Origin: an uncultured Candidatus Poseidoniales archaeon
Lineage (GTDB): Archaea > Thermoplasmatota > Poseidoniia > Poseidoniales > Poseidoniaceae
Direction: 5' to 3'
NCBI GenBank assembly: GCA_905182185.1
Contig: CAJJAP010000007.1
Location: 17,461 to 81,460 of the forward strand
Length of the DNA: 64,000 nucleotides
Positions 8,681-52,605 of the stretch are shown here, in pieces. The translations under genes and the position numbers were made by a program. A model generated the notes under the pieces. It saw only the letters and a program-made list of their open reading frames with translations. It searched no databases and had not been told where the DNA came from. Within the stretch, counting starts at the first letter, position 1, and the number at the start of each line of letters is the position of its first letter.

Positions 8681-8751
8681 GCGGATATGGTGAAGTGGTA
8701 TCATAGGAGGTTTCCAACCTTTTGCCGGGGGTTCGACTCCCCCTATCCGCA
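8681..8751 (+). tRNA. tRNA-Gly (anticodon UCC)
   Basis: Manually folded cloverleaf. Acceptor GCGGATA/TATCCGC (7 bp). D-stem GTGA/TCAT, D-loop AGTGGTA. Anticodon stem GGAGG/CCTTT, loop TTTCCAA (U33, UCC, A37). 4-nt variable loop. T-arm GGGGG-TTCGACT-CCCCC. Discriminator A followed by CC only. Confidence 0.7.
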
Positions 8752-8921
8752 CCTAATTATGACTTATTGTGTTGTGGTGCGATAGGTCATCGCGTGAACG
8801 ATTGAACTTATTTTATCCTGTAAATCCTCTGAAATAACCCTATCAGCATCTCGATCAATTTGGTAATATGATTCCACATGGAATGAGAAGCCATATCAAG
8901 TAGTGAATAAGCCCCCAAATA

Positions 8922-14600: not shown

Positions 14601-17600
14601 CTGAAGCGGCTGAAGAAGGAACTGAGGCTGGTACTGGAGATGGACTCGATTTCGCTGCGGCTTTCTGCTCTACAGGTTGTGGAGTTGGAACTGTAATTGG
14701 GGTTTGTGCAACCACTTCACCACCCATCATCCGAGAGATATAGGCAATCATGTGATTCAGAGTTGGATAATCAGATAAGACAAAGTCATCGTCGACTGGT
14801 AGGGAAAACTTCTCACGGATATCACCCATAATCTCTGCTTGCTTAACAGTGTCAATTCCCAATTCACCTTCGAGGTCTTGGTCTAATTCAATAAAATCAG
14901 CAGGATAACCAGTATGAGCGACTACAACTTCTACAACAAGTGGAGTTATTTCCGATGTTTCTAAATCAGTAGCTAATTTAACAGCCGATTGTGGCTTACT
15001 AATTTCGACTGGAGCTTGTGGTTGTGCTAGCGTCTCTATTGCTGCTTCTGCTGCTGGTGCGGCAATTACTGTTGCGGCACCTCCTGTCATTTTGTTGATG
15101 TATCCGATCATATGATTCAATGTTGGATAATCCGAAAGAACAAACTCGTCGTCAACTGGTAGGGAAAACTTTTCTCGAATATCGCCCATAATCTCTGCTT
15201 GCTTGACCGTATCAATGCCCAATTCACCCTCTAGGTCTTGGTCTAATTCAACAAAGTCTGCTGGATATCCTGTGTGATTAACCACTACTTCGATGACAGT
15301 GGTTACAATATCACCTGATACGGTTGCAGCGGCTACTGGAGCCGGTTTGTTTTGTTGAACGACTGGCTTTGAAACTGGCATTGATGCTACTGCAGGCGCT
15401 GAGATTGAAACTGGTACTGGATCTACGGCATTTACAACCACCGGAGCAGGGTTTGGTTTTCCTTCAAAATCGGCGGTAATAGGCCAACTTTCTCCTTGTA
15501 CACCGCCGTGCAATTTATCATCAGCATCAACATAGCAGACCAATTTATTTTGTAATACTCGGAATACTACGTCATCAGTCCCCGCTAATTCTCTATTCCA
15601 GGCAAGGAATTTGGCACCATCGATTCTCTCCCCCACAAACGGAGTTCTCTTTACTAGTGAAAGGGCTATTTGTGAGCCAAATCCTGCTGCAAAGCGAAGT
15701 CCATAGCGCAGATTTGGATATTCTCCACCTGTGGATAGATTCAAGTCTCCTAATTCCGGATCTTTTTCCTTGTGATTAGCGATAGGAGGAATTCTTCCTG
15801 TTTTCATCCCGTATAGCATGCTAGCATCTTCAATTCCAACTGCCATCGGATGTCCAGTGAACCCTTTAGTATTGGAAATTACAAGGGAATCCGTACTATC
15901 ACCGAATGTATCGCGTAGTGCTTTAACCTCGGATTGAGCGCTTCCTCCTCGGGCCGGAGTGAATGTTTCATGGCTAAAGAAGGCTGTATCAGATGCGAAT
16001 TCATGCCGGTCTATTCCCCAGCGCTTTTCCATATCTCCAACGAAATTATTGACAACTCCTGCGACGTGTTCAACATCTAAGCGAGTTCCATGGAAGGCTG
16101 AGTTTGCAGTGGTTGAACCTAATAATTCTGCAATAGGTTGAACTCCACGCTTAGCCGCTTCAGAACTTCTCTCCACTACGAAAGCAGCAGCACCCATCCC
16201 TAAGATGAGCCCATTGCGTCGACGGTCAAACGGTAATGCTGTTTCTTCTACTACATTGCCGGTTGCTGCTGCACCTGATGCTGCGAATCCTGCTCCGACC
16301 CATTCCCACATATCATCGCCGGTAACGTCGTCACCAGAGATGATTACCACTCGGTCTACGCGGTCTGCTGCAAGCCAATCTTCGGCAACACCAAACGCTG
16401 CAGTAGCTGATGCGCAGGCGAGATTGATTGTTGTATTTGGCCCACGAATGCCAGTATACTGTGCAAATTGTGAATGACCCATATTGAGGGTTTGGAATAG
16501 ATATCTGCGGTCAAATTGTCCGTCACCATCATCGCCATTATTCTTGGCATGTTTCTTGGCCATCTGCATTCCAGGGAAACAAGAGGAGAATACAATTCCA
16601 GTTCGGTCTCTCTGCACTTGAGGGATTTGCCAACTTCTGATCAACCTAAGTCCACCTTTGCCAACTTGCTCAACAGGAGTTAGTGGTATGGCAGCATCAC
16701 GGAGTGCTAGTAATCCGGCTGCTACGGCCAACTGTGTGGAAATATCCCATGCCAAAACTACCTTCGGGTCTATACCAAATTCTTCTGAGATGTCAAAGGC
16801 AGATTTGAGACCCGCTAATTGTGGAATATCACTGAATTCAGTTGCCTTTTCCATATTGACTGAACCATCTCTCCCTTTGATTAGACGAACTAAGTTCTTA
16901 TCGAGCAGTCTTTGTTTGTATTCATCTGAAACTTCGCTAATACAAGTTTCACCACGGACAAGGCGTTCAAATGTATCCTCGTCGAATACTTTCTTTCCAC
17001 CAGGAAGGCCAAGAGAAACACCTGTGATCACATATGGGTCTGCTCTACGGTTGGCCATGGTATCATTTCCAGTAGCGACTACTGTAGTTCCTTGCTGTGA
17101 AATATTGGCACTAGGCAATTTAGTTAAATTGGTCTTGGCAGTCCATTGAGAAGGGACTGATGCAATCCAATGCGCTATATCCTCTACAGTTTGTGCACTG
17201 CTGACATCCACATCCGCCATGGTTTGGCATTCACTGGCAATTGTTTGTAGCAGATTAGCAATGGCAGAATCTGCAAGACCAAGCCCAAGACGGAGATTGA
17301 CCATCCCATTACAGAACCTTGCTGGATAACCGCAAAGTGCTGATAGACGGTCTCCAAGGTAAGCATTCTTTGCTTCAGTAGCAATTTGCTCAGGGTCTTT
17401 TTGGGTGGAAACTGTTGTGGTTTGTGCTACTGTTGTAACGGTAGGTTGAGCCGCACCACTAGGAAGTGGGCGGGCTGCTGTACGCAAAGATTCCAAAGAA
17501 GAACTTGTTTGCGAGGTCGAAATTATTGCTGCTTGATGTGCTTCAATCGGTCCAGCACGGAACGCTTCTGTCAATACAGGAGAATCTCCAGTTGGCCACT

Positions 17601-24228: not shown

Positions 24229-25094
24229 TCCTCCTCTGTATCATCCGAGTCAGGGGGGGATGAAGAAATCTCCTCAACCTCCTTTTGCTCATTCAACGCT
24301 GAATAAATTGCATTTCTCCACGGCATATGCATTGGTAAAATGAGTGTTGCATCATCACCATGTTGAATTCTTAAATCCGCCAATGCACCGCGTAATCTTG
24401 CTGCAAAGCGATTATCTCTTGATGAGGAGATGGATTCGTTTATTAGCCATTCAGAAAGTTGCCACCATGTCAATGCCAATACGCTTGCTGAAGCCATATT
24501 CTTTGTTACACCTTTAGGTGGTTCTCTCGCTTTAGAAACATTATTCTTCATTCGTTTGCGCCATTTTCCACCAAGGCTGATCATCCCCAGTAACTTCCTC
24601 CAATGGGATGCGGCTTTTGCTTCCTTACTCAGATATTCATACCACTCATCATCATCGGCCGTAGGTTCAATAAAATATACTGATCTTTCGTGACGTACAG
24701 CATTACGATGTAATCTACGTGGCTCAGGATCGGGGAATCTTCCTGAAATAACCCCTTCCAACTCTGTTACATCATCGAGGTAAATTGCCAATCCACCACC
24801 GGAAATAAGGCTGTAATTGAGATTAACCCCCGGCGACTCTGCTTCATCTATCTCTTCCTGCACCCACAAATCAACTACATCTGGTGATTCGAGCAAAGCG
24901 ATTCCATGCCATGATTCTCTTGGCCTCATTTTAAGAGGAAAAATCACCGTAGGCAATGTACCATGAAGGATTATTTTTCCGCCATCTGGGTCAGACCAAA
25001 CAAGATCGTCCCATGAAAGAATAGGCTGCAAGATTTCACCTTCACTGCCCTTTAACCCAGTCTTGTAAAGCTTCAATACTCCATCCTTGGTCAA
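24225..25094 (-). CDS. hypothetical protein with acidic C-terminus
   Basis: 289-aa ORF with no recognisable motif. Overlaps the neighbouring genes' ends by a few codons, operon-like. Confidence 0.45.
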   Translation of the reverse strand: MTKDGVLKLYKTGLKGSEGEILQPILSWDDLVWSDPDGGKIILHGTLPTVIFPLKMRPRESWHGIALLESPDVVDLWVQEEIDEAESPGVNLNYSLISGGGLAIYLDDVTELEGVISGRFPDPEPRRLHRNAVRHERSVYFIEPTADDDEWYEYLSKEAKAASHWRKLLGMISLGGKWRKRMKNNVSKAREPPKGVTKNMASASVLALTWWQLSEWLINESISSSRDNRFAARLRGALADLRIQHGDDATLILPMHMPWRNAIYSALNEQKEVEEISSSPPDSDDTEEE

Positions 25095-28000
25095 AGTAAC
25101 CCTGGATTTCTGCTTGATTCCATTGAGGGAATGTTGCGATCGCTCTAGCCATTTCCGGATCTACATCTGATGGATGAGAAGAATGAGTTGGTAATTCAGC
25201 ATAGACCTTGCCTTCTTCTTCATATTCACCATCACCAAAGAGGTCAGATGAATTGTCGTTATCTTGGCCGCGCTTGAACAATACTACAACGAGAACTGCT
25301 AATACTGCAGCAATAATACCAACAATAGCTAGTAATAATGCCATGCCATTACCGCCGGATTCTCCTTGAACCTTGACATTGAATTGATCACCTACTAGAG
25401 AACCATCGTACTCGAGGTCGCTAGATGAATTGTCAAAAATCATGTAATACATCCCAGTAGTAGCACTTGGGAACGCTTCAAGTTCAATCGTGAACCAAGC
25501 AGATTCCCCAATAGCTAACTCTTCAGTTTCGATCATTCCAACCTTTGATGGGATTCCATCATTGATTACTGATTTCACAATAAGACTTGCTTGACCTGCC
25601 ATTGTACCTGTATTCCTCAATTCAACTTCAAGAGTCATCTTTTGACCTACAGTAGGATTCAAAGGATTCATCTTTACATTTAATATGTCGAACTTTGCTT
25701 CTTCATGAATGAAATTGTAAATTGACTTGTGAGATAATTCTCCCGAAACCATATGGGCTATGGCAGAACTATCTTCTTGCGGTCCACCACCAAGTATAAT
25801 TTGTGAACCGGCTGAATCAACACCTTCAATCCAGAAAATTATTTCAACACCGCTAATATCCTCTGGAGATGGATCGAATTGGCCTTCTTCAAGTGGCCAT
25901 AAATCAATACAATCACCTGTAGCGAAATATGAACCACCTGTCGGCAATAAGTCTAGATTTGCTTTCATTGGGTCGCTTCCATGTGTAGACCTATAACTAC
26001 TCCATGCGATATCATTAGTTGGGTCATCAAAGAACTTCCAAGCAACTTGTACATCGCCTGGGAACAGCGCTTCTTGCTCTTCAATAATTACTTCAACATC
26101 TATACAGTGATAGTTTGATGTAGAGATATACCCTTCAAGTATTTCTCCAGTGGCTCCTTTCTTTGCCGTCCAAGAGTTGGTTGCAACGCGTGGAGAATTA
26201 CTGTCTACCTTTATGTTAAAGGAGGCACATCCAAAGGAAGTGGAACCCGTACAAAGTCCAGAAGTAGTATCGATTGCACCATTTGGTAAATCGACCAACT
26301 CAAATGTATATCTGTAGTCATTAGTTACAGGAGGTGCTGTAATGTTAATATTGAACTCTCCACCTGTGAAGTTATGATAGAATGTTTCACCAGGATATGC
26401 AATATATCCCTTAGCACCATTCATAACACCATCTTCACGTGTGACCTTCAAAGTCATTTCAACCTCAGGCTTGATGTAAACACTGTCATAAATTCCGTCA
26501 ACATATGCGTATTGTCCAGCAAATGAGACCATGTCACCAGGATAAACGAATCCTTTTCTAATATCAGAGGTAAATGGTTCACTCTCATCAGCAAAGATTG
26601 GAGTGACCATCAAGTCATTCGCTTCATCAGTTCTGAAATCTAGTTGGATTCCGTCACTATAGAACCAAGATTGGATGTGGCGGCCAGAAACTGGCAGCAT
26701 TCTATAACGTGGATTGTCCAAGTCTTGCATATAGAGGACTGGAGAGTTCAATGTATTTCCTTCACCCAGTACACCCCAATCGATCCTGATAGGTAAGTCG
26801 AGATAAAAGTCAGATTCAAAGGTGTTAACCAAATGCCCACCGTCCATTCTCAAAAGGCGTGGACCTTCGCTGTCTTCGCTTTCTGCGACGACTTCTATCC
26901 ATTCGCTGTCTGTCCAAGCAGTCTCATTACGTGGGAAATACCATAGTGTCAGATCCTCACGAGAGTCATCTAAATCGATTCGAATGTAATCAACATCACG
27001 CCATCCATTATCATCACCAGCCTCTACTATCAGATGATATTCATTTCCAGCATACATTGTTTGATTCCAATCTCCTTGCCATTGTTGTTGATTGGAATTG
27101 ATAAAGCGATTATCACTTGAATCATCGATGAAGAAGTTTCTGATAACTGGATTCTTTGATGACATTGAAACATATGTTACATGGTCATTGTCAAACCCAG
27201 GTGCGCCGCCATCAATTGGGTTGCCCGCTAAGTCAAATCCTTCAATCCACAAACTGACCTTTCCAACTGGGTCTTGACCCTCATTGGCATAATCGTTGTA
27301 TTCACCGGAGTAGTTTGCATTTGGCACTCCACCATCACTGGTTAATGTGATACTGGTATATTCATCAGCGGTTGCAAATCCGTCTTCATCTGCATCGTTA
27401 TCGTGTTGAACCCAAATGTATAATTCTAAAGTTGCAGGAGGATTTGGTAAATCTTGAGCTTGCATTCGAATCTTCTGGTTTGCTGAAGGAACCACCCATG
27501 TATCGTCTATCAGTGTTCTCCAATTGCTATCTACATTTTCATCCACTTGACCGTTCAATACTTGCAAATTGATTAAATTCGGGTCATATGTATCAATCGT
27601 CAAGTTGAATGGGATTGCACAATCTGCATCAGGGCGAAGTGAAAGGCTCGGGCAGAGAGTATCTCCGCCTTGGTAGCCATCTATCTTGAATCGATATGTT
27701 TCTTCTCCTGCTGCAGTTGAACCGAGGTCAACATTCCAATTGAAATCTCCACCGATCGCACCAGATTGATTTGCAACTTCTTCCCATTCAGTAGTCACGT
27801 TACCTTCTGTATTGTTGACATGGCGCAATTGTAAGACCATGTAGTAACTTGTCGGGTCAGGTGATGCATCAAGGCCCTGTAGTCGGATTGAACCTACTAA
27901 GTTGATTTCTTGATTAGACATTCCATTATCTAAATCTTGAATAGTCCCTATACTGTTCTGTAATGAGAAACTCGTGATTCCTGCATCATTTTCAACTGCA

Positions 28001-30930
28001 TTGCCTCCAACTGGAGCCATCAGTATTGCAGCTGGGAGACCGTTTACACCATTACCGGCTATCAAACCAGAATAGATTCGAACTGTTTCAGTATCTTCCC
28101 AAGTAGGATTAACTCTAAATCTCCATATTACTTCTTTACCATCGGTAATATCAGCATATGTTGATGATTCAAGAGTGAGTAAATTATCTTCATCACTTGA
28201 TTCGGAAAATCCTAAGAATTCAGAATATGACAAAACCACATTACCTGTATCCGACTCAAATGAAAGGGTTGCTTCCGCAAGCGTAGAACCGGTCAATGGG
28301 TCAACTGTATGCGTTGTTACGATTTCATAAATCTCACCGTTAGGGTATAGTCCAACTGGATTACCATTCATTGTGATGGTGTTGTCATATCCAGTGCTTG
28401 TTGAAAGTGAGAGGTCTGATAGTGTCACTCCACCACCTGTTGTAGAGATTACTGCAATTGGTACGCTAGCAGTTGCTCCGCCTCCATCCCAAAGTGCAAC
28501 ACCTTGGTTTAATTCAGAATCAAGTCCATCACCGTTGTTTATTACAGTTGAATAATCGTAAATAACATCTAACCCTTTAACGGTCATGGAAGTACCTGTG
28601 CTCGCATTTGGAGAGGTGGCCTTGAAGAAGAAAGTCATCCATTTATTGCCATATGCATCGTCATGGCTATGTGGGACCATTGGATTTGTCAACAATGAGT
28701 TTAATGCGTCTGTGAGACCGAGTGCATTTGGAAGTGCTTCAGGGATGATAAAAGAGGCATTGTCAATGCTACCAAGACTATACTCTTGTGAACCTGAAAC
28801 AAGATAAAGGTCAAATCCTTCTATTGGATCGGAATTAGAATGAATTGTGATATCATCAAATGCCACATCTGCAGCGGTGATAACCGAGCCCTTAGGTAGC
28901 ATGAAATGTCCACCGATTGCAGTACCAGACAAGTCAGTAGTCATTACTTTGCTATCCGCTCCGTAATTTATACCGTCCGCCTTATTATTCCAAAGAGTTG
29001 TTTGTCTGCCAAAGGAACCAAACGCAGGTTCATCAAAGCCCCAATCAATATCACCATCGTGGGCGACATCTATCTGAATCCTCTCAGCGTGGTGACCAAA
29101 TCCTAGGTCAAACCACATACCGCCAACGTTACATGGAGAGGTGTAGGAAAGAATTGTATTGAATCCGAATACTGGAGCTGTCATGTTTGTAGTGACATTA
29201 TTTGACAGAGTCTCGATACCCGTTACACCCGTGTAGGATACATCGATGGTCGGGTCTTCTAAGCAATCATCTTGAATCATTGGAGTAATACTTGTAATCG
29301 GGCGGTTGAACTTTTGTCTATCCAATGCAACTGTAAATGACGTATCTACAATACTTGGAGAATACATCATCAAGTCTGCCATACCAATGGATTCCCATAC
29401 TCCATTGACAATAGTATTCATACCATTTGATGTTTGGTTAAATCCAGTACCGACACGAGTCCCCATACCTAAGCCATGTAATACTGGCGTGCTTAGTTGA
29501 CTTGGACCAGAATCAAATCTAAATTTCAAGTTAATACTTGGATAAGTTGTTGAATTGACATCCCATAATTCAATGATTTTCCCTGAAAGTCCAGACATAG
29601 CAGCGCCATCGCTATCAATTACAATTTGACCATTGGTTGAATCGATAATATCGACTTCAATGGTTGCGCTGGAGGTAGTCTCGGATTCCAAATTAAGGAT
29701 TCCGAATCCATTCGGATGATTTTCTCCACCAAGAGTAGATGGTAGGAAACCGCGAATTGTCATTTCACCAGTTTGTGGTAATAAGTCGCCTAATCTAAAG
29801 TTATCAATATACCAACCCGATGTATTGAAATCTTGTACAGACCATCCAGCAGGAGGGTTGTATCCTTGATGCTCCATTACGAAACGGAGTTCAATATATT
29901 TACCGACATAATCTTTCAAGTCTAGGGCAACATCGGCCCACCCAGTTGGATTGGCTGCATATGTAGATTTACCAGCAAGACCATAATCGTTGTCAGAGAT
30001 TCCACCACATTGCGACGAAATCTTGTTATTTGCACCGGAATTACTCTTTTGCCAGTATCCATTTGAATAACTGATTCCACTAGAGTTCTGAATATCGATT
30101 GGAATATAATCAAAACCTGTAGAGGATAGGGGGTCGTATTGACCTGCTACCAAAGATGAACGAATTTCTACATATCCACAGTCCATCAGTTTACTTTGAA
30201 CAGGAGTTGCAGAGTTTCCAAAGCTTTCCAGGTTGTGCCATGAAGAGAAGTGTGCCGTATGAGTTTTCAACTGAGGGCTGACGAACATTTCAACAGAATT
30301 CATCTTTAGACTAAATGATTGAGCACCATTGTCATCGGTGTAATTATCATCATATAGATTTGTACCCCAGCAGTCAGAGCCAGATGCACAATTTGAATTT
30401 GTGATCATACCACCGAATAATGAACCATGCTCCCAGCCAACTCCACTCTGTGGTGGCGGGTTAGTCACGTCCATGAAACCGGCATTTGTGCCTTCAAAGT
30501 CGGTCAGAAATCCATCTGATTTCAAACTAACAGGAGTAGCTTGTGAACCATCTTCGATTTGAAAATCATCAATATTGGAGAAGATTGTCAATTGATTATT
30601 ATATGCAGGATTCCATACACGCGGTATTGTATCAATATCGATTCTGGCCTGAGATGAATGTTCAAGCATATTGGTTGCAATTTTCAAAGATGCACCGGTT
30701 ACAGTCTCCCCCGCAGGTATGTTGACCAATCCGTCAACTAGGTTCAAATATGCCGTTCCGTCTCTCAATTCAATATCTACTTCTGAATCGCCATTTGCGA
30801 ATGTAGTTACTGTCGATGATGCTGCCAATGGTGCAAATAACATCAATGCTACCAAGAACATTGATGTACTAATTTTTCTATTCTGTTGTGTCATAAAATC
30901 ACCTGCTATCCTTCGCGAAGGAGAAACCAC
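25042..30930 (-). CDS. Giant (about 1950 aa) secreted cell-surface protein with a C-terminal TM anchor and cytoplasmic tail
   Basis: Probable start at the internal Met (nt ~30894) giving the signal peptide MTQQNRKISTSMFLVALMLFAPLAASS. Long S/T/N/G-rich beta-type sequence. C-terminal LLLAIVGIIAAVLAVLVVVLF followed by a charged tail. Confidence 0.8.
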   Translation of the reverse strand: MVSPSRRIAGDFMTQQNRKISTSMFLVALMLFAPLAASSTVTTFANGDSEVDIELRDGTAYLNLVDGLVNIPAGETVTGASLKIATNMLEHSSQARIDIDTIPRVWNPAYNNQLTIFSNIDDFQIEDGSQATPVSLKSDGFLTDFEGTNAGFMDVTNPPPQSGVGWEHGSLFGGMITNSNCASGSDCWGTNLYDDNYTDDNGAQSFSLKMNSVEMFVSPQLKTHTAHFSSWHNLESFGNSATPVQSKLMDCGYVEIRSSLVAGQYDPLSSTGFDYIPIDIQNSSGISYSNGYWQKSNSGANNKISSQCGGISDNDYGLAGKSTYAANPTGWADVALDLKDYVGKYIELRFVMEHQGYNPPAGWSVQDFNTSGWYIDNFRLGDLLPQTGEMTIRGFLPSTLGGENHPNGFGILNLESETTSSATIEVDIIDSTNGQIVIDSDGAAMSGLSGKIIELWDVNSTTYPSINLKFRFDSGPSQLSTPVLHGLGMGTRVGTGFNQTSNGMNTIVNGVWESIGMADLMMYSPSIVDTSFTVALDRQKFNRPITSITPMIQDDCLEDPTIDVSYTGVTGIETLSNNVTTNMTAPVFGFNTILSYTSPCNVGGMWFDLGFGHHAERIQIDVAHDGDIDWGFDEPAFGSFGRQTTLWNNKADGINYGADSKVMTTDLSGTAIGGHFMLPKGSVITAADVAFDDITIHSNSDPIEGFDLYLVSGSQEYSLGSIDNASFIIPEALPNALGLTDALNSLLTNPMVPHSHDDAYGNKWMTFFFKATSPNASTGTSMTVKGLDVIYDYSTVINNGDGLDSELNQGVALWDGGGATASVPIAVISTTGGGVTLSDLSLSTSTGYDNTITMNGNPVGLYPNGEIYEIVTTHTVDPLTGSTLAEATLSFESDTGNVVLSYSEFLGFSESSDEDNLLTLESSTYADITDGKEVIWRFRVNPTWEDTETVRIYSGLIAGNGVNGLPAAILMAPVGGNAVENDAGITSFSLQNSIGTIQDLDNGMSNQEINLVGSIRLQGLDASPDPTSYYMVLQLRHVNNTEGNVTTEWEEVANQSGAIGGDFNWNVDLGSTAAGEETYRFKIDGYQGGDTLCPSLSLRPDADCAIPFNLTIDTYDPNLINLQVLNGQVDENVDSNWRTLIDDTWVVPSANQKIRMQAQDLPNPPATLELYIWVQHDNDADEDGFATADEYTSITLTSDGGVPNANYSGEYNDYANEGQDPVGKVSLWIEGFDLAGNPIDGGAPGFDNDHVTYVSMSSKNPVIRNFFIDDSSDNRFINSNQQQWQGDWNQTMYAGNEYHLIVEAGDDNGWRDVDYIRIDLDDSREDLTLWYFPRNETAWTDSEWIEVVAESEDSEGPRLLRMDGGHLVNTFESDFYLDLPIRIDWGVLGEGNTLNSPVLYMQDLDNPRYRMLPVSGRHIQSWFYSDGIQLDFRTDEANDLMVTPIFADESEPFTSDIRKGFVYPGDMVSFAGQYAYVDGIYDSVYIKPEVEMTLKVTREDGVMNGAKGYIAYPGETFYHNFTGGEFNINITAPPVTNDYRYTFELVDLPNGAIDTTSGLCTGSTSFGCASFNIKVDSNSPRVATNSWTAKKGATGEILEGYISTSNYHCIDVEVIIEEQEALFPGDVQVAWKFFDDPTNDIAWSSYRSTHGSDPMKANLDLLPTGGSYFATGDCIDLWPLEEGQFDPSPEDISGVEIIFWIEGVDSAGSQIILGGGPQEDSSAIAHMVSGELSHKSIYNFIHEEAKFDILNVKMNPLNPTVGQKMTLEVELRNTGTMAGQASLIVKSVINDGIPSKVGMIETEELAIGESAWFTIELEAFPSATTGMYYMIFDNSSSDLEYDGSLVGDQFNVKVQGESGGNGMALLLAIVGIIAAVLAVLVVVLFKRGQDNDNSSDLFGDGEYEEEGKVYAELPTHSSHPSDVDPEMARAIATFPQWNQAEIQGYFDQGWSIEALQDWVKGQ

Positions 30931-47067: not shown

Positions 47068-49572
47068 GTGTCTAAAGGACGTATTCGCAGCGGATATCAA
47101 CGCCGAATATTAGACTGGTTAAGCGATGGCGGAGGGACTGTCTCGGATATTAGTGAACAATTAGAGTTGAGAATGCCGCACGCATCTCTTGCCCTAAGAC
47201 AGCTGCGTGATAATGGGGATGTAATCAGGGAAGACCAGTCCGGTATTAGAGGCGCAGTGCACCGTATGACACCCATAGGGCTGGAACGCCTACAGCAAGA
47301 TTCAGTTCACAGAATTAGTAAATATGTCAAACACATACCCCCTGATGGTGAAATGATTTTACTATCGCGCGATGACTCTACACTGCTATTTGGTTATGTG
47401 AATAGCGCACCCCCCCCACTGATTCATCTACCAGATGAAGTAAATCTGAGAGAACTTACACCCCCCGATGATTCCAATGGAAATCAGGGGGGGCGTTGGG
47501 CAGTCACAAGAGGAAATAGTATTATTTGGTTCGATATAGATTCCTTACAACAAGTAGACCCACCCGTAAAAACCGATACTGGGACCTTGGTTGACTGGTC
47601 ACAACAAAGTCGAAAAATCGGATTGGTCAGTGCAAAACTTTTAGAAAATTCAAAACCATGGAAGATTACCGAAGGAACATGGCTCAAATCACCAATCGAT
47701 CACTCACAACTACCCCCAGTATTAGGTAATGGCGAGTATGTACTAGGACTAACTCCCGACGACATAGAGATATCACCCCCTCTTGGTATCCACGGGCACT
47801 TTTCCTCACAGCTTTTGCGGGGTTTAGCCCTATCCACTTTATCCAAGGATGCAATTGTAATCGGGGAATTAAGAGATATCGGATCTATGCGAGTACTACC
47901 AATTGAACTTCTCAGAGAATGGTTAATTCACAAGCACCCTCGATTAGATACCAACCGATTAGATGAAAAATGGAATTTACTCCACCAATACTACACAACT
48001 AACAATGGTTCAAGCCCTTCAATTTCAATGAAGAGAGAATTATTGGCAGACTTCGGAGAGGTTGAATGGAGCGACAATAATGTTCAACGGATTGAATTAA
48101 CTGGTGTTTCCGAAAATGGTGGAATTTGCATCTACAACTGGGTTCTATCCCAAGCAAAACAATTCGTTGGAGAATGGAATTGGCCGATTCAAGGCAATCT
48201 ACCCCTTTTGAAAAGAGTAATGGCAAGTGGTAACTGCAGAATCATGATAACTACCAAAGGTGAATTTTCTGAATTGACAAAATCCAATTTACTTTTATTC
48301 AAGGGCGATGGAATGGCGCGGGTTAATCTGCAAATCGAAAGAGGGATATTCTTGCCGCTTTCATTAGCCGGCAATAAACGAACTTCAAAATCACCCCACA
48401 GCAGCAGATTAGTACCTGCAAATGCTGATGAACTTAACCTATTTTTAGATGGGAGTAAAATAGAAAACACCTTTTCAGTAGAGAAGGATGTAGAAACTAG
48501 TTCCCAAATTTGGAAAGCGATTGATTCTCTACCAGAGGGCGATGCCGATTATGCAAACTCCATTGAAAGAAAAAATCCTCTTGCTGCTTGGATTTCATCT
48601 CCAAAACAAGATAGATTACGCTGCTGGCAACGTATTTCTAGCGAACTAGAAAATGGTTGGGCCGATCTTTTGCCGATTGAACTATGCGATGATAAACTAT
48701 TGATTACAGCCAGTGAAAAGGCAGGTATTGCTTGGAGAGAAGATGCAATTAATCATTTGAAATCTAATTTCATACGCCACAATCAATCTATTATTGAAGT
48801 GGAACATCTTCTCAAAGATAAAAAAACAAAATCCTTTTTGGCGGCAGCGATTCTGCTCTCCAGTGAAACATTTCCTCTAGAATTGCACGAAATCATTTCC
48901 GATTCATGTAAGATTTGGTTGGATGCCCCTCATTACAGTTGCGAGGTATTGGAAGCAATGTTCCCCTTGGGAAAGACTCTGGATGAGGAAAGGATGCTGT
49001 TGGCCGTGAAATGTGCAAAGGCATCTCGATCTCACCCGAGAGATTCGGTGCTAGCAGTTTGGGGAGAGTTATTACTGAGATTGGATAGTGGCGTTGCTAT
49101 ATCAATCGATTTAGTACGTAAAGCACTACAGATATTACCACATACGTGGTGGTCGGCATGGTCTGCCGAATGGTTACAAATGCAATTATCTGCTTCATCA
49201 TCACGCCACTGGTTATCTGAGAATTACAAACCTTGGCCAGCATTAATATGCCGTCCTAGTGGGGAAAATGTAGGGCTACCTGGACATCCAATAAAGCACA
49301 AGGGTTTTGCAATTGACAGTGAGTCACTACTGCATATTCTACTACTGGAGGAAGGACAAGGCAAAGCACCTTTATTAGATTTATATGATGCTATTATCAA
49401 TGCTGAAAATGGCAACCCAATCCACAATGGCAGAATTCACCCTCTAGTTGGATATTTGACAAAACCTGTTGAAACTTGGCCTTCCATTCCAATTCAGATC
49501 CTCCAACAAGGAGATTCAGAAGTCTCCGCATTACTGTTTGGTCGTTCATTTCGTAACCGGATTGAACAATAG
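47068..49572 (+). CDS. Large (834 aa) protein of unknown function with an N-terminal winged-helix DNA-binding domain
   Basis: YQRRILDWLSDGGGTVSDISEQLELRMPHASLALRQLRDNGDVI is an ArsR/MarR-like wHTH. No catalytic motif recognised in the remaining ~750 aa. C8/G7 homopolymer tracts lie in the coding DNA (47405-47475). Confidence 0.6.
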   Translation: MSKGRIRSGYQRRILDWLSDGGGTVSDISEQLELRMPHASLALRQLRDNGDVIREDQSGIRGAVHRMTPIGLERLQQDSVHRISKYVKHIPPDGEMILLSRDDSTLLFGYVNSAPPPLIHLPDEVNLRELTPPDDSNGNQGGRWAVTRGNSIIWFDIDSLQQVDPPVKTDTGTLVDWSQQSRKIGLVSAKLLENSKPWKITEGTWLKSPIDHSQLPPVLGNGEYVLGLTPDDIEISPPLGIHGHFSSQLLRGLALSTLSKDAIVIGELRDIGSMRVLPIELLREWLIHKHPRLDTNRLDEKWNLLHQYYTTNNGSSPSISMKRELLADFGEVEWSDNNVQRIELTGVSENGGICIYNWVLSQAKQFVGEWNWPIQGNLPLLKRVMASGNCRIMITTKGEFSELTKSNLLLFKGDGMARVNLQIERGIFLPLSLAGNKRTSKSPHSSRLVPANADELNLFLDGSKIENTFSVEKDVETSSQIWKAIDSLPEGDADYANSIERKNPLAAWISSPKQDRLRCWQRISSELENGWADLLPIELCDDKLLITASEKAGIAWREDAINHLKSNFIRHNQSIIEVEHLLKDKKTKSFLAAAILLSSETFPLELHEIISDSCKIWLDAPHYSCEVLEAMFPLGKTLDEERMLLAVKCAKASRSHPRDSVLAVWGELLLRLDSGVAISIDLVRKALQILPHTWWSAWSAEWLQMQLSASSSRHWLSENYKPWPALICRPSGENVGLPGHPIKHKGFAIDSESLLHILLLEEGQGKAPLLDLYDAIINAENGNPIHNGRIHPLVGYLTKPVETWPSIPIQILQQGDSEVSALLFGRSFRNRIEQ

Positions 49573-49933
49573 ATGGTTTCAAATGGGAAGCGTCGGTGGA
49601 ATTACTACCGCACCTGCAACATCTGGTGGAGCTACTGTGAAAAGAATCAGCTATGATATCTGATACCAATGGTGCGGAGTGCAATTCGAAGGCCAAATGG
49701 ATCCTTCGGGAAATGAAATTTGGTGCAAACGCACTTAAACCATCGGAAGGTTATGGGTCCTCTTGCGACCAATGGGATGACCAAGAGACAACCACCCTTC
49801 CGGACAGTACGCCCTGTCACCGAGGGTCAGGCCTTTGAGCAATGCAATGAAAAAGGCCGTTAGGTGACGGGGCACAGCTTTCTTTTCTAATATTGATTAT
49901 GCAATCGATGCAAATCAATTCAATTGATGTAAA

Positions 49934-50863
49934 TCAATTTCCTTCAAAAATCGCAAGTGCTTGTTCTGCTGTAGCGCCTTGACAAATGATTGCGTCACAC
50001 GCAGCGGTCATTCTCACTGCTTCTTCTGTTCCTTTTTGGTGAATATTTCTTCCAGTTGCAGCACCTCTACATTTTGAGATATTGATTTGTCCCCAAAGAC
50101 GCTCTAGGAACTCTCGGGGTGGGAGAGAACCGCCACCAGAACAAATTATTCCTGTTCTTCCTGCTGCTTCAACCGCTACTCGCAATGATTCAAATCGATC
50201 CATTCCGTCAAAACTGTTTGGATAATTGACTTTAGCGAAATCGGCTCCAATACATGCTGCAACCCCTGCTGCACCCGAGATTAATTGTGCATCCATCTCA
50301 TCTGCAACCGCTTTACCACGTGGATACATCCATACGACTGAAATCATTCCAAGTTCGTGTGCTTGGCGGATGAAAGTTGCCGCCTCTCTTAGCATCTCAT
50401 GCTCAAATTCACTTCCAATGTACACGGTATAGCCAATTCCAACAACATTAACGCCGTTAGAGACTAATGCCATTACATCGTCCAAATCCCACATTGCTTG
50501 AGAAACAGGATCACGCTGCGAAGTCTTGACCATAGAAGATTTTGAGTTCAACTTTACCAGATATGGAATATTCGGGTAGTCTCTAGCGTATTGTGAAATT
50601 AATCCAAGTTGTCCTGCCATAACTCCAATGGTCCCTGCATCAGCAGTTGCTTGTCCGATTTTGAAAAAGTGTTCTGGGTCATTTGAAGATAATGGAATAT
50701 TTTTGCCACCATCATAAAAATCATCGTTTAAATGCTCTATTTTTTGGTCGCAAGCAAATAGATTCATGTGACCTGTACCTGCTGTAGCCGCATCCATGTT
50801 TTGGATATAGATATCTTGTAGTTCATTTGGAACATCTGCTGGAACATTATACTTGGCCATCAT
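49934..50863 (-). CDS. Class I (Schiff-base) aldolase of the archaeal DhnA/FbaB family (fructose-bisphosphate aldolase or ADH synthase)
   Basis: TIM-barrel aldolase pattern (VKLN...; GADFAKVNYP; ICSGGGS) similar to archaeal FBPA/AroA-prime. Start placed at MMAKYNV. Confidence 0.65.
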   Translation of the reverse strand: MMAKYNVPADVPNELQDIYIQNMDAATAGTGHMNLFACDQKIEHLNDDFYDGGKNIPLSSNDPEHFFKIGQATADAGTIGVMAGQLGLISQYARDYPNIPYLVKLNSKSSMVKTSQRDPVSQAMWDLDDVMALVSNGVNVVGIGYTVYIGSEFEHEMLREAATFIRQAHELGMISVVWMYPRGKAVADEMDAQLISGAAGVAACIGADFAKVNYPNSFDGMDRFESLRVAVEAAGRTGIICSGGGSLPPREFLERLWGQINISKCRGAATGRNIHQKGTEEAVRMTAACDAIICQGATAEQALAIFEGN

Positions 50864-50998
50864 AATCACCCTATATCTGCGGCCACACCCATTCTTCATT
50901 TCAAGACTACGGAGAATCATAACTGCAAATTATGGTAAATTTTTTGATAAATCGGACATATGTGGACAGTATATTGATTATTAATTACTCCTCTAATG

Positions 50999-51010
50999 TT
51001 ATATTATAAA
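50999..51010 (+). promoter_or_regulatory. TATA-box-like element about 23 nt upstream of the zinc-knuckle gene ATG (probable leaderless transcript)
   Basis: ttatattataaa, centred ~23 nt upstream of the ATG at 51027. The divergent intergenic region is strongly AT-rich. Confidence 0.3.
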
Positions 51011-51026
51011 TCCTCAATGAGATTGT

Positions 51027-51710
51027 ATGGGCCGAACATGTGCTAGTTGTGGCCAGTCAGGTCATAATCGCAGAACATGTATACTGCGCCGTGATAGCAA
51101 TGATGATTATGCCACGTTAAAGGTTGAACATAGAATCTGTTCTCTCTGCGGAGAGCATGGGCATAATGTATTAACTTGTCAACTAACTAATCCCAAAAAG
51201 GCTGCAATTAGAATTTTAAAAATATCTGCAAAGGGAAGTCGGGTCTGTAGTGCATGCGGGAAGTACGGCCATAACAGCCGGACATGTATTGTTAGCAACC
51301 CAAACCGCCACCATAGAAGAGAAAGTGATGATGGTAGACGCCATTGCAAACAATGTGGAAAGGTTGGCCATAACACTCGAACATGTCCGATAATCAATCC
51401 AGAAAGAAAAGATAGGAAAAACCGGATTGATGGAAAGAGAATTTGTAGTGAATGTGGAAAAATCGGACACAATACTAGAACTTGTTCAGTTCTATTTCCG
51501 AACCGTGTTCAAAGAAACTCTCAGGCTAGAAAAAGAATCTGCGGACAATGTGGAGACGGGGGGCACAATAAGAGAACTTGCCCCACAATCAATCCACGAG
51601 CTGCTGCTGCGAGAAGATTGAGAAAAGGAAACAATAAAGATCAACGTCGATGTAAAATTTGTAACATCGTCGGACATAATTCAAGGACATGCTCTCAAAG
51701 AGCATTGTAA
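51027..51710 (+). CDS. Protein with seven tandem CCHC zinc knuckles (CX2CX4HX4C), CNBP-like nucleic-acid-binding architecture
   Basis: CASCGQSGHNRRTC, CSLCGEHGHNVLTC, CSACGKYGHNSRTC, CKQCGKVGHNTRTC, CSECGKIGHNTRTC, CGQCGDGGHNKRTC, CKICNIVGHNSRTC, separated by basic linkers. Confidence 0.75.
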   Translation: MGRTCASCGQSGHNRRTCILRRDSNDDYATLKVEHRICSLCGEHGHNVLTCQLTNPKKAAIRILKISAKGSRVCSACGKYGHNSRTCIVSNPNRHHRRESDDGRRHCKQCGKVGHNTRTCPIINPERKDRKNRIDGKRICSECGKIGHNTRTCSVLFPNRVQRNSQARKRICGQCGDGGHNKRTCPTINPRAAAARRLRKGNNKDQRRCKICNIVGHNSRTCSQRAL

Positions 51711-51738
51711 GTCCTTGATGAATGATGCCGGTTTCGTT

Positions 51739-52605
51739 TCACTGACCAGTGAAATGCGGCTGGCGCTTTTCAACATAGGCTGCAATTCCTTCTTTAGCAT
51801 CGCTGCTATTGAATAGAGACGCTTGTAATTCTCGCTCAAGTGCCAAGTGGTACTCGAATGGAATCTCTGGCCCAGTTTGGCATGAACGCTTGATGTTGCC
51901 AACTGCCTTGACCGCCTTATTAGGCAAAGTGAATTGGCTGCAATAGTCCAGAACATCTTCGCGGAAACCTTCAGGTGAACCTTCAAAGATGTCATTTAGG
52001 AGATTGAGGTTTTCTGCATCCTCGAAAGAAATTAAGTTGCCGGTAACCATCATTTCTAGGGCTTTTGCCTTACCGATGAGGCGGGTTAGACGAGCAGTAC
52101 CACCAGTTCCTGCAAGTACACCGAGGTTGATTTCAGGAAGTCCCAACTTACCCGAGTTCTTACGAGCGATACGGATATCAGCTGCCATAGCGATTTCAAG
52201 ACCGCCACCAACTGCATGACCGTTAATAGCGCAAACGACTAACTTGGAAGTTTGTTCAAGTCGAGAAAGTGTTTCATTGGCGTGAAGACAGAAGTTGTAT
52301 TTGAAGCCTGGAGTGACACTGTTCAACATTTGAATTGAAGCACCAGCGGAGAAGAAAGATGCTCCATTTCCGGTTAGGACAATTACTGTTACATCATCAT
52401 CAAAACGTGCCTTCACAATTGCTTGGTCGATATCCCTCATCATTTCATGAGTGTAAGTATTAGGAGAACGGTCATTTTCACTGGTCAAAGGTGCACCAGC
52501 AGAGTCTGAAGTTAATTCAATAACTGCGATCCCATTATTGGTTGTACCATAGTTGACAAGACGGTTTTCCATCGCTTCGAATTTGAGTTCATATGAGTCG
52601 CTCAT
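51739..52605 (-). CDS. Enoyl-CoA hydratase/isomerase (crotonase fold)
   Basis: VIVLTGNGASFFSAGASI, AINGHAVGGGLEIAMAADIRIA, and oxyanion-hole glycines. Confidence 0.85.
   Translation of the reverse strand: MSDSYELKFEAMENRLVNYGTTNNGIAVIELTSDSAGAPLTSENDRSPNTYTHEMMRDIDQAIVKARFDDDVTVIVLTGNGASFFSAGASIQMLNSVTPGFKYNFCLHANETLSRLEQTSKLVVCAINGHAVGGGLEIAMAADIRIARKNSGKLGLPEINLGVLAGTGGTARLTRLIGKAKALEMMVTGNLISFEDAENLNLLNDIFEGSPEGFREDVLDYCSQFTLPNKAVKAVGNIKRSCQTGPEIPFEYHLALERELQASLFNSSDAKEGIAAYVEKRQPHFTGQ

What the first reader, a model, noticed from the sequence alone, without database searches (positions are those of the whole stretch)
51027..51710. Archaeal-context protein made of seven tandem CCHC zinc knuckles (CNBP-like)
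A CX2CX4HX4C zinc knuckle recurs seven times, separated by Arg/Lys-rich linkers. Seven knuckles is the architecture of eukaryotic CNBP and retroviral nucleocapsid-type ssRNA/ssDNA chaperones, and is rare in prokaryotes. The gene sits behind an AT-rich divergent promoter with a TATA-like box suited to a leaderless mRNA. It could be a single-strand nucleic-acid chaperone or regulator. Its origin is open: eukaryote-like signature protein or convergent invention.
Basis: seen in the sequence. Interest (0 to 1): 0.6.

Follow-up and report, generated by a model that had tools for sequence, protein, structure and literature searches.

The report
Seven-zinc-knuckle protein of marine archaea
This is a real, conserved gene of the abundant ocean archaea Poseidoniales (Marine Group II) that encodes a very basic protein built from seven retrovirus/eukaryote-type CCHC zinc knuckles, most likely a single-strand nucleic-acid binder, and it always sits back-to-back with a fructose-bisphosphate aldolase gene.

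Summary
Window 51027-51710 (+) is a 227-aa ORF with exactly seven CX2CX4HX4C motifs. These are the only seven in all six frames of the 64-kb window; shuffles give 0.12.

It is a real gene. About 60 orthologues in Poseidoniales MAGs and marine metagenomes are 41-94% identical. Among the five closest, all 28 zinc ligands are invariant and dN/dS is 0.15-0.32. Among 42 complete orthologues, 29 have seven knuckles, 12 have six and 1 has five.

Zinc-knuckle Pfam profiles match: PF14392 above cut-off here, and PF13696 and PF00098 well above cut-off in orthologues.

It is not a CNBP orthologue.
- No unit (0/280) has the aromatic residue after Cys1.
- The linkers are about 20 residues long.
- There is no RGG box.

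The unit is a distinct R-x-C-S-x-C-G-x-x-G-H-N-x-R-T-C-P-x-L/I-N/H-P module. Its nearest relatives are uncharacterised plant, giant-virus and phage proteins.

In 57 of 57 loci with enough upstream DNA, the gene is divergently paired with an aldolase gene, even where the aldolase type has been swapped.

The most likely function is a zinc-dependent, multivalent single-strand RNA/DNA binder or chaperone. A regulatory link to the aldolase is possible. I found no paper describing the family.

The parts
51027..51710 (+). CDS of the seven-zinc-knuckle protein (227 aa plus stop; pI 10.4, net charge about +36)
   Evidence: ORF. About 60 orthologues. dN/dS 0.15-0.32. Pfam zf-CCHC_4 38.9 bits against a cut-off of 27.
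51039..51080 (+). Knuckle 1, CASCGQSGHNRRTC
   Evidence: Six-frame motif scan. Ligands invariant in the five closest orthologues. In some distant lineages this unit is degenerate, e.g. CERCAKTGQKCEQC.
51138..51179 (+). Knuckle 2, CSLCGEHGHNVLTC
51246..51287 (+). Knuckle 3, CSACGKYGHNSRTC
51345..51386 (+). Knuckle 4, CKQCGKVGHNTRTC
   Evidence: Modelled with knuckle 5: pLDDT about 81-83 in the knuckles.
51444..51485 (+). Knuckle 5, CSECGKIGHNTRTC
51540..51581 (+). Knuckle 6, CGQCGDGGHNKRTC, followed by the conserved linker NPxAAAAR
51651..51692 (+). Knuckle 7, CKICNIVGHNSRTC (C-terminal)
50999..51012 (+). Conserved TATA-like element TTATATTATAAATC, 15-28 nt upstream of the ATG. Putative archaeal promoter for a leaderless or near-leaderless mRNA.
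   Evidence: Invariant apart from one A/C position in 15 loci. Similar AT-rich boxes lie 20-35 nt upstream of the start in distant lineages. The TSS was not measured.
50861..51026 (.). Divergent intergenic region shared with the aldolase gene (166 nt)
49934..50860 (-). DeoC/LacD-family (archaeal class I type) aldolase gene, divergent partner. The likely start is the ATG at 50860, preceded by GGTGAT.
   Evidence: Pfam PF01791, E 6e-36. Adjacent in 57/57 loci, as the DeoC type in 33 and the class I 'Glycolytic' type in 24.
50861..50925 (-). Near-invariant 5' leader of the aldolase gene. Possible regulatory element and a candidate target of the knuckle protein (speculative).
   Evidence: Nucleotide-level invariance across 15 loci, exceeding that of the coding regions. 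No Rfam hit and no excess folding energy.

Best explanation
The gene encodes a 25-kDa, strongly basic protein of Poseidoniales (Marine Group II archaea). It consists of seven Cys2-His-Cys zinc knuckles, each expected to hold one Zn2+, strung together by flexible Arg/Lys-rich linkers of about 20 residues.

It most likely works as a multivalent, zinc-dependent binder of single-stranded nucleic acid, probably RNA. That would make it a chaperone or post-transcriptional regulator in which the small knuckles and cationic linkers each contact a few nucleotides and avidity comes from the array.

It is probably transcribed from a TATA-box promoter as a leaderless mRNA. The intergenic region is shared with a divergently oriented fructose-bisphosphate aldolase gene. 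Co-regulation with that gene, or regulation of it, is a secondary and weaker inference.

Shown here:
- the gene is real and under purifying selection;
- it has a zinc-knuckle sequence signature and a knuckle-like predicted fold;
- the family is spread across Poseidoniales-type loci;
- the aldolase pairing is conserved.

Inferred: zinc binding, nucleic-acid binding, strand preference, the leaderless transcript, and any link to aldolase expression.
For: - Seven canonical motifs, far above chance.
- All 28 ligands are invariant in the five closest orthologues. dN/dS is 0.15-0.32 with dS up to 1.27.
- About 60 orthologues at 41-94% identity keep 5-7 knuckles across contig GC of 0.40-0.64.
- Pfam zinc-knuckle models match. 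PF14392 scores 38.9 bits here. In orthologues PF13696 reaches 78.5 bits and PF00098 reaches 42.7 bits.
- The best solved-structure sequence matches are RNA-binding knuckles: TUT4 (E 7.6e-4) and RSV nucleocapsid.
- The two-knuckle AF2 model has pLDDT 76.8. Its seven best Foldseek PDB hits are all CCHC-knuckle RNA-binding proteins (T. brucei RNase D, HIV-1 NC, RSV NC); Air2 and Lin28 rank lower, after unrelated C2H2 zinc-finger (CTCF) hits.
- pI 10.4, 50 R+K in 227 aa.
- Divergent pairing with an aldolase gene holds in 57/57 loci, despite a swap of aldolase type and varying downstream neighbours.
- A conserved TATA-like box lies at -28 to -15, with no SD.
Against: - The aromatic and hydrophobic residues that retroviral NC, CNBP and Lin28 knuckles use to stack on unpaired bases are absent: 0/280 and 1/280 units. 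The binding mode, if any, must differ and may be mostly electrostatic.
- Some CCHC knuckles mediate protein-protein contacts, e.g. Air2 knuckles 4-5 with Trf4 (established knowledge).
- There is no binding, expression or TSS data.
- The Foldseek E-values are weak (5e-3 or worse) and the full-length single-sequence model is poor (pLDDT 48.5).
- The conserved synteny could simply be inherited gene order.
- The aldolase leader has no detectable structure (z = 0.01).
Confidence: 0.6

Rival explanations
1. It is a DNA-binding regulator or nucleoid-associated protein. The basic knuckle array would bind double-stranded or locally melted DNA, for example the shared intergenic promoter, and would control transcription of the adjacent aldolase and gluconeogenic genes or compact the chromosome.
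For: - The divergent arrangement with the aldolase gene is conserved in 57/57 loci. This is the classic regulator-target layout in prokaryotes.
- GlpX FBPase lies nearby, and is immediately downstream in several lineages.
- The charge is very high.
- The same GHNSRTC knuckle sits at the N-terminus of plant CCA1-like MYB transcription factors (PMC5666722).
Against: - CCHC knuckles characterised so far bind single strands or proteins, not duplex DNA (established knowledge).
- No helix-turn-helix or other dsDNA-binding domain is present.
- No repeated operator-like motif was identified in the intergenic region.
Confidence: 0.18
2. It is a protein-protein adaptor or a zinc-handling protein. The knuckles would serve as docking modules for a partner, in the manner of the TRAMP subunit Air2. 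Alternatively the protein buffers or stores up to seven Zn2+ per chain in zinc-poor surface water.
For: - Base-stacking residues are absent.
- Air2 is among the fold hits, and a faint AIR2-like_ZnK4 Pfam hit lies on orthologue P0075.
- Surface-water Poseidoniales carry zinc uptake genes (PMC6461757).
Against: - A net charge of about +36 and Arg/Lys linkers are not needed for zinc storage and are typical of polyanion binders.
- No conserved partner gene is known apart from the aldolase.
- Known zinc buffers such as metallothioneins have different Cys patterns (established knowledge).
Confidence: 0.1
3. It is a remnant of a mobile element or virus, such as a Gag/nucleocapsid-like gene or a recently transferred viral gene, with no host function.
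For: - CCHC knuckles are typical of retroelement Gag.
- GHNxRTC knuckle proteins occur on a giant-virus-like contig and a phage-like contig.
Against: - The chromosomal synteny is stable across lineages with contig GC of 0.40-0.64, so the gene tracks host composition.
- The gene's GC is 0.424 against 0.432 for the window.
- Purifying selection acts on it.
- There is no capsid, protease, RT or integrase nearby; the neighbours are metabolic genes.
- Viral hits are only 26-59% identical over partial lengths.
Confidence: 0.02

Closest known systems
CNBP / ZNF9 (vertebrates), Gis2 (yeast)
   Same: Small protein made almost only of seven CX2CX4HX4C knuckles with G at positions 5 and 8. Basic. Believed to act on single-stranded nucleic acid.
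   Different: - CNBP knuckles carry an aromatic residue after Cys1 and a hydrophobic residue after His. This family has none (0/280, 1/280).
- CNBP has an RGG box and short linkers. Here there is no RGG and the linkers are 18-23 residues, with a conserved C-P-x-L/I-N/H-P extension.
- BLASTP similarity is scaffold-only (26% identity, 34% gaps, CNBP sequence from memory).
- The knuckle number varies from 5 to 7 within the family.
- It is archaeal rather than eukaryotic.
Retroviral nucleocapsid proteins (HIV-1 NCp7, RSV NC)
   Same: Same zinc-knuckle motif and predicted fold. The second RSV NC knuckle (CQLCNGMGHNAKQC) even shares the G-H-N signature.
   Different: NC has 1-2 knuckles, is cleaved from Gag, and uses aromatic residues for guanine recognition. 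Here there are seven knuckles, no Gag context and no aromatics.
Uncharacterised GHNxRTC multi-knuckle proteins of plants, algae, marine giant viruses and some phages. Examples: plant 'CCHC-type domain-containing protein', the N-terminal knuckle of CCA1-like MYB factors, and metagenomic P0001/P0088/P0222-type proteins.
   Same: Same knuckle subtype, C-x2-C-G-x2-G-H-N-x-R-T-C. These are the best non-archaeal database hits at 31-55% identity.
   Different: They have 1-5 knuckles combined with other domains. They lack the archaeal C-P-x-L/I-N/H-P linker motif: only 3 of 215 retrieved proteins have it, and the two placed on syntenic contigs are truncated calls of archaeal orthologues (the third lies on a 763-nt contig). 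None is functionally characterised with respect to the knuckle.
TRAMP subunits Air1/Air2 and TUT4/7 knuckles
   Same: Arrays of CCHC knuckles in RNA-metabolism proteins. TUT4 is the best PDB sequence hit (E 7.6e-4). Air2 is among the fold hits.
   Different: These act inside eukaryotic poly(A)/uridylyl-transferase complexes. No such partner was identified next to the archaeal gene, and the similarity is at motif level only.

Membership tests
CCHC zinc knuckle (Pfam zf-CCHC clan) | CX2CX4HX4C ligand spacing | tested here: met
   7/7 units in the window protein. 280 units in 42 orthologues.
CCHC zinc knuckle (Pfam zf-CCHC clan) | Profile HMM score above the curated cut-off | tested here: met
   - Window protein: PF14392 38.9 against 27 (passes), PF13696 26.7 against 27, PF15288 21.9 against 22, PF00098 12.2 against 20.8.
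- Orthologues: PF13696 up to 78.5, PF00098 up to 42.7, PF15288 up to 40.8.
CCHC zinc knuckle (Pfam zf-CCHC clan) | Conserved Gly at positions 5 and 8 (C-x2-C-G-x2-G-H) | tested here: met
   G in 62% of units at position 5 and in 91% at position 8.
CCHC zinc knuckle (Pfam zf-CCHC clan) | Knuckle fold resembling solved structures | tested here: inconclusive
   The two-knuckle AF2 model has pLDDT 76.8. The top Foldseek PDB hits are all CCHC knuckle proteins, but at E 5e-3 or weaker and TM below 0.4.
CCHC zinc knuckle (Pfam zf-CCHC clan) | Stoichiometric Zn2+ binding | not testable with these tools
   Needs metal analysis of the recombinant protein.
CNBP/Gis2 family | Seven tandem knuckles | tested here: met
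   Seven in the window protein. Family distribution: 7 in 29 proteins, 6 in 12, 5 in 1.
CNBP/Gis2 family | Aromatic residue after Cys1 and hydrophobic residue after His (base-stacking platform) | tested here: not met
   0/280 and 1/280 units. Position His+1 is Asn in 96%.
CNBP/Gis2 family | RGG box between knuckles 1 and 2, and short linkers | tested here: not met
   Linker 1 is ILRRDSNDDYATLKVEHRI, with no RGG. Knuckle starts are spaced 32-37 residues apart.
CNBP/Gis2 family | Sequence similarity beyond the Cys/Gly/His scaffold | tested here: not met
The best database hits are GHN-type proteins, not CNBP-type.
Retroelement Gag nucleocapsid | Embedded in or next to capsid, protease, RT or integrase genes | tested here: not met
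   The neighbours are aldolase, enoyl-CoA hydratase, a NAD-binding oxidoreductase, MoaE, GlpX and PPAT/DUF359.
TRAMP Air1/Air2-like adaptor | Partner non-canonical poly(A) polymerase or helicase, and a Trf4-binding knuckle pair | not tested
   Only a faint AIR2-like_ZnK4 hit on one orthologue and a weak fold hit to 3nyb_B. No genome-wide partner search was possible.

The most novel reading that the evidence does not exclude
Poseidoniales, among the most abundant archaea of the surface ocean, would have acquired a eukaryote/giant-virus-type zinc-knuckle module early in their history. They would have expanded it into an order-wide 5-7-knuckle protein that acts as a dedicated post-transcriptional (or single-strand DNA) regulator of the adjacent fructose-bisphosphate aldolase and gluconeogenic genes, binding the near-invariant aldolase leader. 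That would be a CCHC-knuckle-based gene-control system in a prokaryote, using a base-recognition mode without aromatic stacking.
Probability: 0.15. Interest if true: 0.75.

Novelty: new variant of a known kind. Interest (0 to 1): 0.55.

Why it matters
CCHC zinc knuckles are regarded as a eukaryotic and retroelement invention. Here an array of them is a conserved, vertically inherited chromosomal gene across every Poseidoniales-type locus recovered, and this order is globally abundant and uncultured.

The family is nearly invisible in protein databases, partly because gene callers truncate it. I found no paper describing it.

It offers three things:
- a tractable recombinant target for learning how a knuckle without aromatic residues recognises nucleic acid;
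- a possible handle on gene regulation and RNA biology in Marine Group II archaea;
- a test case for domain exchange between archaea, algae and giant viruses in the plankton.

Its strict pairing with the aldolase gene gives a concrete, testable regulatory hypothesis.

Tried and rejected
- **NCBIfam:** only noise. **PHROGs:** only noise.
- **Rfam** on 49800-52000: only chance-level hits.
- **TRF:** no DNA-level repeat.
- **Sigma-70 promoter and terminator scan:** nothing above shuffles, and not appropriate for archaea anyway.
- **Full-length single-sequence AF2:** uninformative, pLDDT 48.5.
- **Protein-database searches**: almost no full-length orthologues, only truncated calls (P0071, P0073, P0075, P0080). 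Orthologues had to be recovered from DNA.
- **Strict unit-to-unit orthology across the family:** tested and not supported beyond the closer lineages, because best partners are ambiguous.
- **The aldolase leader as a structured RNA:** no excess stability (z = 0.01). A C/D-box reading by eye was unconvincing and was dropped.
- **Magrovirus origin:** the viral-contig hits are weak and partial. The best 'viral-looking' relative is on a giant-virus-like contig.
- **L092-L094 (11-12 knuckles):** these are CNBP-type proteins from an unrelated, eukaryote- or giant-virus-like context, not family members.
- **Literature searches** for zinc knuckles in archaea, Poseidoniales or MGII: nothing relevant.

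Full report
**Observation**

Window 51027-51710 (+) is an ATG-initiated ORF of 227 codons. An in-frame TGA lies two codons upstream of the ATG, so the start is fixed.

The translation contains seven CX2CX4HX4C motifs:
- CASCGQSGHNRRTC
- CSLCGEHGHNVLTC
- CSACGKYGHNSRTC
- CKQCGKVGHNTRTC
- CSECGKIGHNTRTC
- CGQCGDGGHNKRTC
- CKICNIVGHNSRTC

A six-frame scan of the whole 64-kb window finds exactly these seven and no others. Fifty shuffles give a mean of 0.12 and a maximum of 1.

The protein has 33 Arg and 17 Lys against 14 Asp/Glu. Its pI is 10.4 and it has only three aromatic residues. Tandem Repeats Finder sees no DNA repeat, so the repetition is ancient and exists only at protein level.

**Is it a gene, and whose?**

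The exact protein is encoded on several marine metagenome contigs. A scan of one genome per prokaryotic species found four full-length orthologues, 70-85% identical. All are on MAGs labelled Poseidoniaceae, Poseidoniales or 'Euryarchaeota'.

In the five-way alignment all 28 Cys/His ligands are invariant and mean column identity is 89%. Pairwise dN/dS is 0.15-0.32 with dS up to 1.27. The gene's GC (0.424) matches the window (0.432).

A profile scan of metagenome contigs recovered about 60 further orthologues at 41-94% identity, on contigs with GC from 0.40 to 0.64. Among 42 complete, non-identical proteins, 29 have seven canonical knuckles, 12 have six and one has five. In some lineages the first unit is a variant, CERCAKTGQKCEQC.

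Gene callers often truncate the gene:
- P0073 is called as 146 aa inside a 233-aa, seven-knuckle ORF.
- P0075 is called as 110 aa inside a 218-aa ORF.

This helps explain why three protein-database searches returned almost no full-length orthologues.

**Domain assignment**

The window protein passes the Pfam cut-off for zf-CCHC_4 (38.9 against 27 bits). It is borderline for zf-CCHC_2 and zf-CCHC_6 and below cut-off for the canonical PF00098. Orthologues pass PF13696 (up to 78.5 bits), PF00098 (up to 42.7), PF14392 and PF15288.

The best sequence matches among solved structures are the TUT4 knuckles (E 7.6e-4) and the Rous sarcoma virus nucleocapsid. The second RSV knuckle is CQLCNGMGHNAKQC.

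A single-sequence AF2 model of the whole protein is a low-confidence beads-on-a-string (pLDDT 48.5). A model of knuckles 4-5, built with an alignment of the window protein's own paralogous unit pairs, reaches pLDDT 76.8, with 81-83 in the knuckles. Its seven best Foldseek PDB hits are all CCHC-knuckle RNA-binding proteins: T. brucei RNase D, HIV-1 NC and RSV NC. Air2 and Lin28 appear further down the list, after unrelated C2H2 zinc-finger (CTCF) hits. The E-values are weak, 5e-3 or worse.

The knuckle assignment stands.

**What kind of knuckle**

The consensus from 280 units is R-x-C-S-x-C-G-x-x-G-H-N-x-R-T-C-P-x-(L/I)-(N/H)-P. This is a module of about 21 residues that extends beyond the 14-residue knuckle.

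No unit has an aromatic residue after Cys1, and only 1 of 280 has a hydrophobic residue after His. In 96% of units that position is Asn. From established structural work on HIV-1 NC, Lin28 and CNBP-type knuckles, those two positions form the platform that stacks on unpaired guanines.

Knuckle starts are 32-37 residues apart, and there is no RGG box.

The protein therefore resembles CNBP in knuckle count and general design, but it is not a CNBP family member.

**Relatives outside archaea**

An exhaustive HMMER search of 1.84 billion cluster representatives gives 376 hits at E <= 1e-3. Only one reaches E <= 1e-30, and it is a fragment of the same protein.

Only three of the 215 retrieved proteins share the archaeal C-P-x-φ-N/H-P linker motif. 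Two of them, P0073 and P0075, are truncated calls of syntenic archaeal orthologues. The third, P0080, lies on a 763-nt contig too short to show synteny.

The rest carry the same GHNxRTC knuckle subtype in other architectures:
- uncharacterised plant 'CCHC-type domain-containing proteins';
- proteins on a giant-virus-like contig that also carries mitochondrial-carrier and rhodopsin genes;
- a protein on a phage-like contig;
- weak hits on IMG/VR contigs.

The same GHNSRTC knuckle heads plant CCA1-like MYB factors (PMC5666722).

The subtype is thus widespread in eukaryotes and their viruses. Among the prokaryotic sequences I could examine, it is an array only in Poseidoniales. This is compatible with an old inter-domain transfer, but the direction was not tested.

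**Genomic context**

The gene is flanked by a divergent DeoC/LacD-family aldolase gene (49934-50860, minus strand) and a convergent enoyl-CoA hydratase gene.

Across all loci with enough upstream DNA (57 of 57), the knuckle gene is divergently adjacent to an aldolase gene. That gene is the DeoC type in 33 loci and the non-homologous class I 'Glycolytic' (PF00274) type in 24.

Other parts of the neighbourhood do change:
- The downstream neighbour varies between enoyl-CoA hydratase, a NAD-binding oxidoreductase and the GlpX fructose-1,6-bisphosphatase.
- The upstream 834-aa gene flips strand.

The pairing has therefore survived several local rearrangements and an in-situ replacement of the aldolase. 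This suggests that the shared intergenic region matters. It does not prove a functional link.

**Promoter**

In 15 close loci the sequence TTATATT(A/C)TAAATC lies 15-28 nt upstream of the ATG and is essentially invariant. No Shine-Dalgarno-like sequence is present. Distant lineages also have AT-rich boxes 20-35 nt upstream of starts that lie 2-7 codons before the first knuckle.

Archaeal TATA boxes usually sit about 26 nt upstream of the TSS (established knowledge). This geometry therefore fits a leaderless or near-leaderless mRNA. No transcript data were available.

**Mechanism**

My best reading (confidence about 0.6) is a zinc-dependent, multivalent single-strand nucleic-acid binder: a chaperone or post-transcriptional regulator. 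The many weak knuckle and linker contacts would add up. The binding chemistry must differ from NC and CNBP because the stacking residues are missing.

The rivals are:
- a DNA-binding regulator or nucleoid protein acting on the shared promoter (about 0.18);
- a protein-protein adaptor or zinc-handling protein (about 0.1);
- a mobile-element remnant (about 0.02), which is contradicted by synteny, composition and selection.

**Novelty**

Searches of the paper library for zinc knuckles in archaea, Poseidoniales or Marine Group II returned nothing relevant.

The domain is known and so is the tandem-array design. The new points are the archaeal, order-wide family, the distinct extended unit without aromatic residues, and the strict aldolase pairing. 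I rate it a new variant of a known kind, with moderate interest.

Noticed in passing
window 50861-50925 (minus strand): The 5' leader of the aldolase gene is almost invariant at nucleotide level in 15 loci. The flanking proteins in those loci are only 70-99% identical, so the leader is more conserved than the coding sequence. It has no Rfam match and no excess folding energy (z = 0.01). A different conserved leader occurs in the more distant DeoC-type lineages.
   Followed up: partly
window 49934-50860 versus L007 4583-5593 and 23 other loci: The aldolase gene paired with the knuckle gene is the DeoC/LacD family in 33 loci and the non-homologous class I 'Glycolytic' PF00274 family in 24 loci. 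This is an in-situ non-orthologous replacement at a conserved position.
   Followed up: partly
window 11641-20532 (-): A 2963-aa multidomain protein with KS, AT, ACP, KR and DH domains, resembling a type I PKS or PUFA synthase. It is unusual for an archaeal genome.
   Followed up: no
window 25042-30930 (-): A 1962-aa ORF with no Pfam match at E <= 1e-5.
   Followed up: no
window 47068-49572 (+): An 834-aa protein with no Pfam hit. Its N-terminus looks like a winged helix-turn-helix by eye. It is present next to the aldolase in all lineages (24-39% identity in distant ones), but its strand flips.
   Followed up: partly
L007 5740-6441; L011 1428-2084; proteins P0071, P0073, P0075, P0080: Automatic gene calls truncate this family (146 aa called in a 233-aa ORF; 110 aa called in a 218-aa ORF). 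Full-length orthologues are almost absent from the two large protein collections searched, so the family is under-represented in protein databases.
   Followed up: yes
L104 8001-8639; L010 6001-6468: Proteins with the same GHNxRTC knuckle subtype lie on two viral-looking contigs. One is giant-virus-like (mitochondrial carrier, rhodopsin, NUDIX). The other is a 75-kb phage-like contig (MazG, ClpP, Cpn60, amidase).
   Followed up: partly
L035 3995-4561: An orthologue otherwise identical to L006 ends prematurely inside knuckle 6 (…GHNKRREN*). This is either a frameshift in the assembly or a pseudogene.
   Followed up: no
L092 3998-4858 (also L093, L094): A 286-aa protein with 11-12 CNBP-type knuckles (aromatic or hydrophobic residues present) on eukaryote- or giant-virus-like contigs. 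It is unrelated to the archaeal family.
   Followed up: partly
window 8681-8753 (+): tRNA-Gly (TCC), the only tRNA gene in the window.
   Followed up: no
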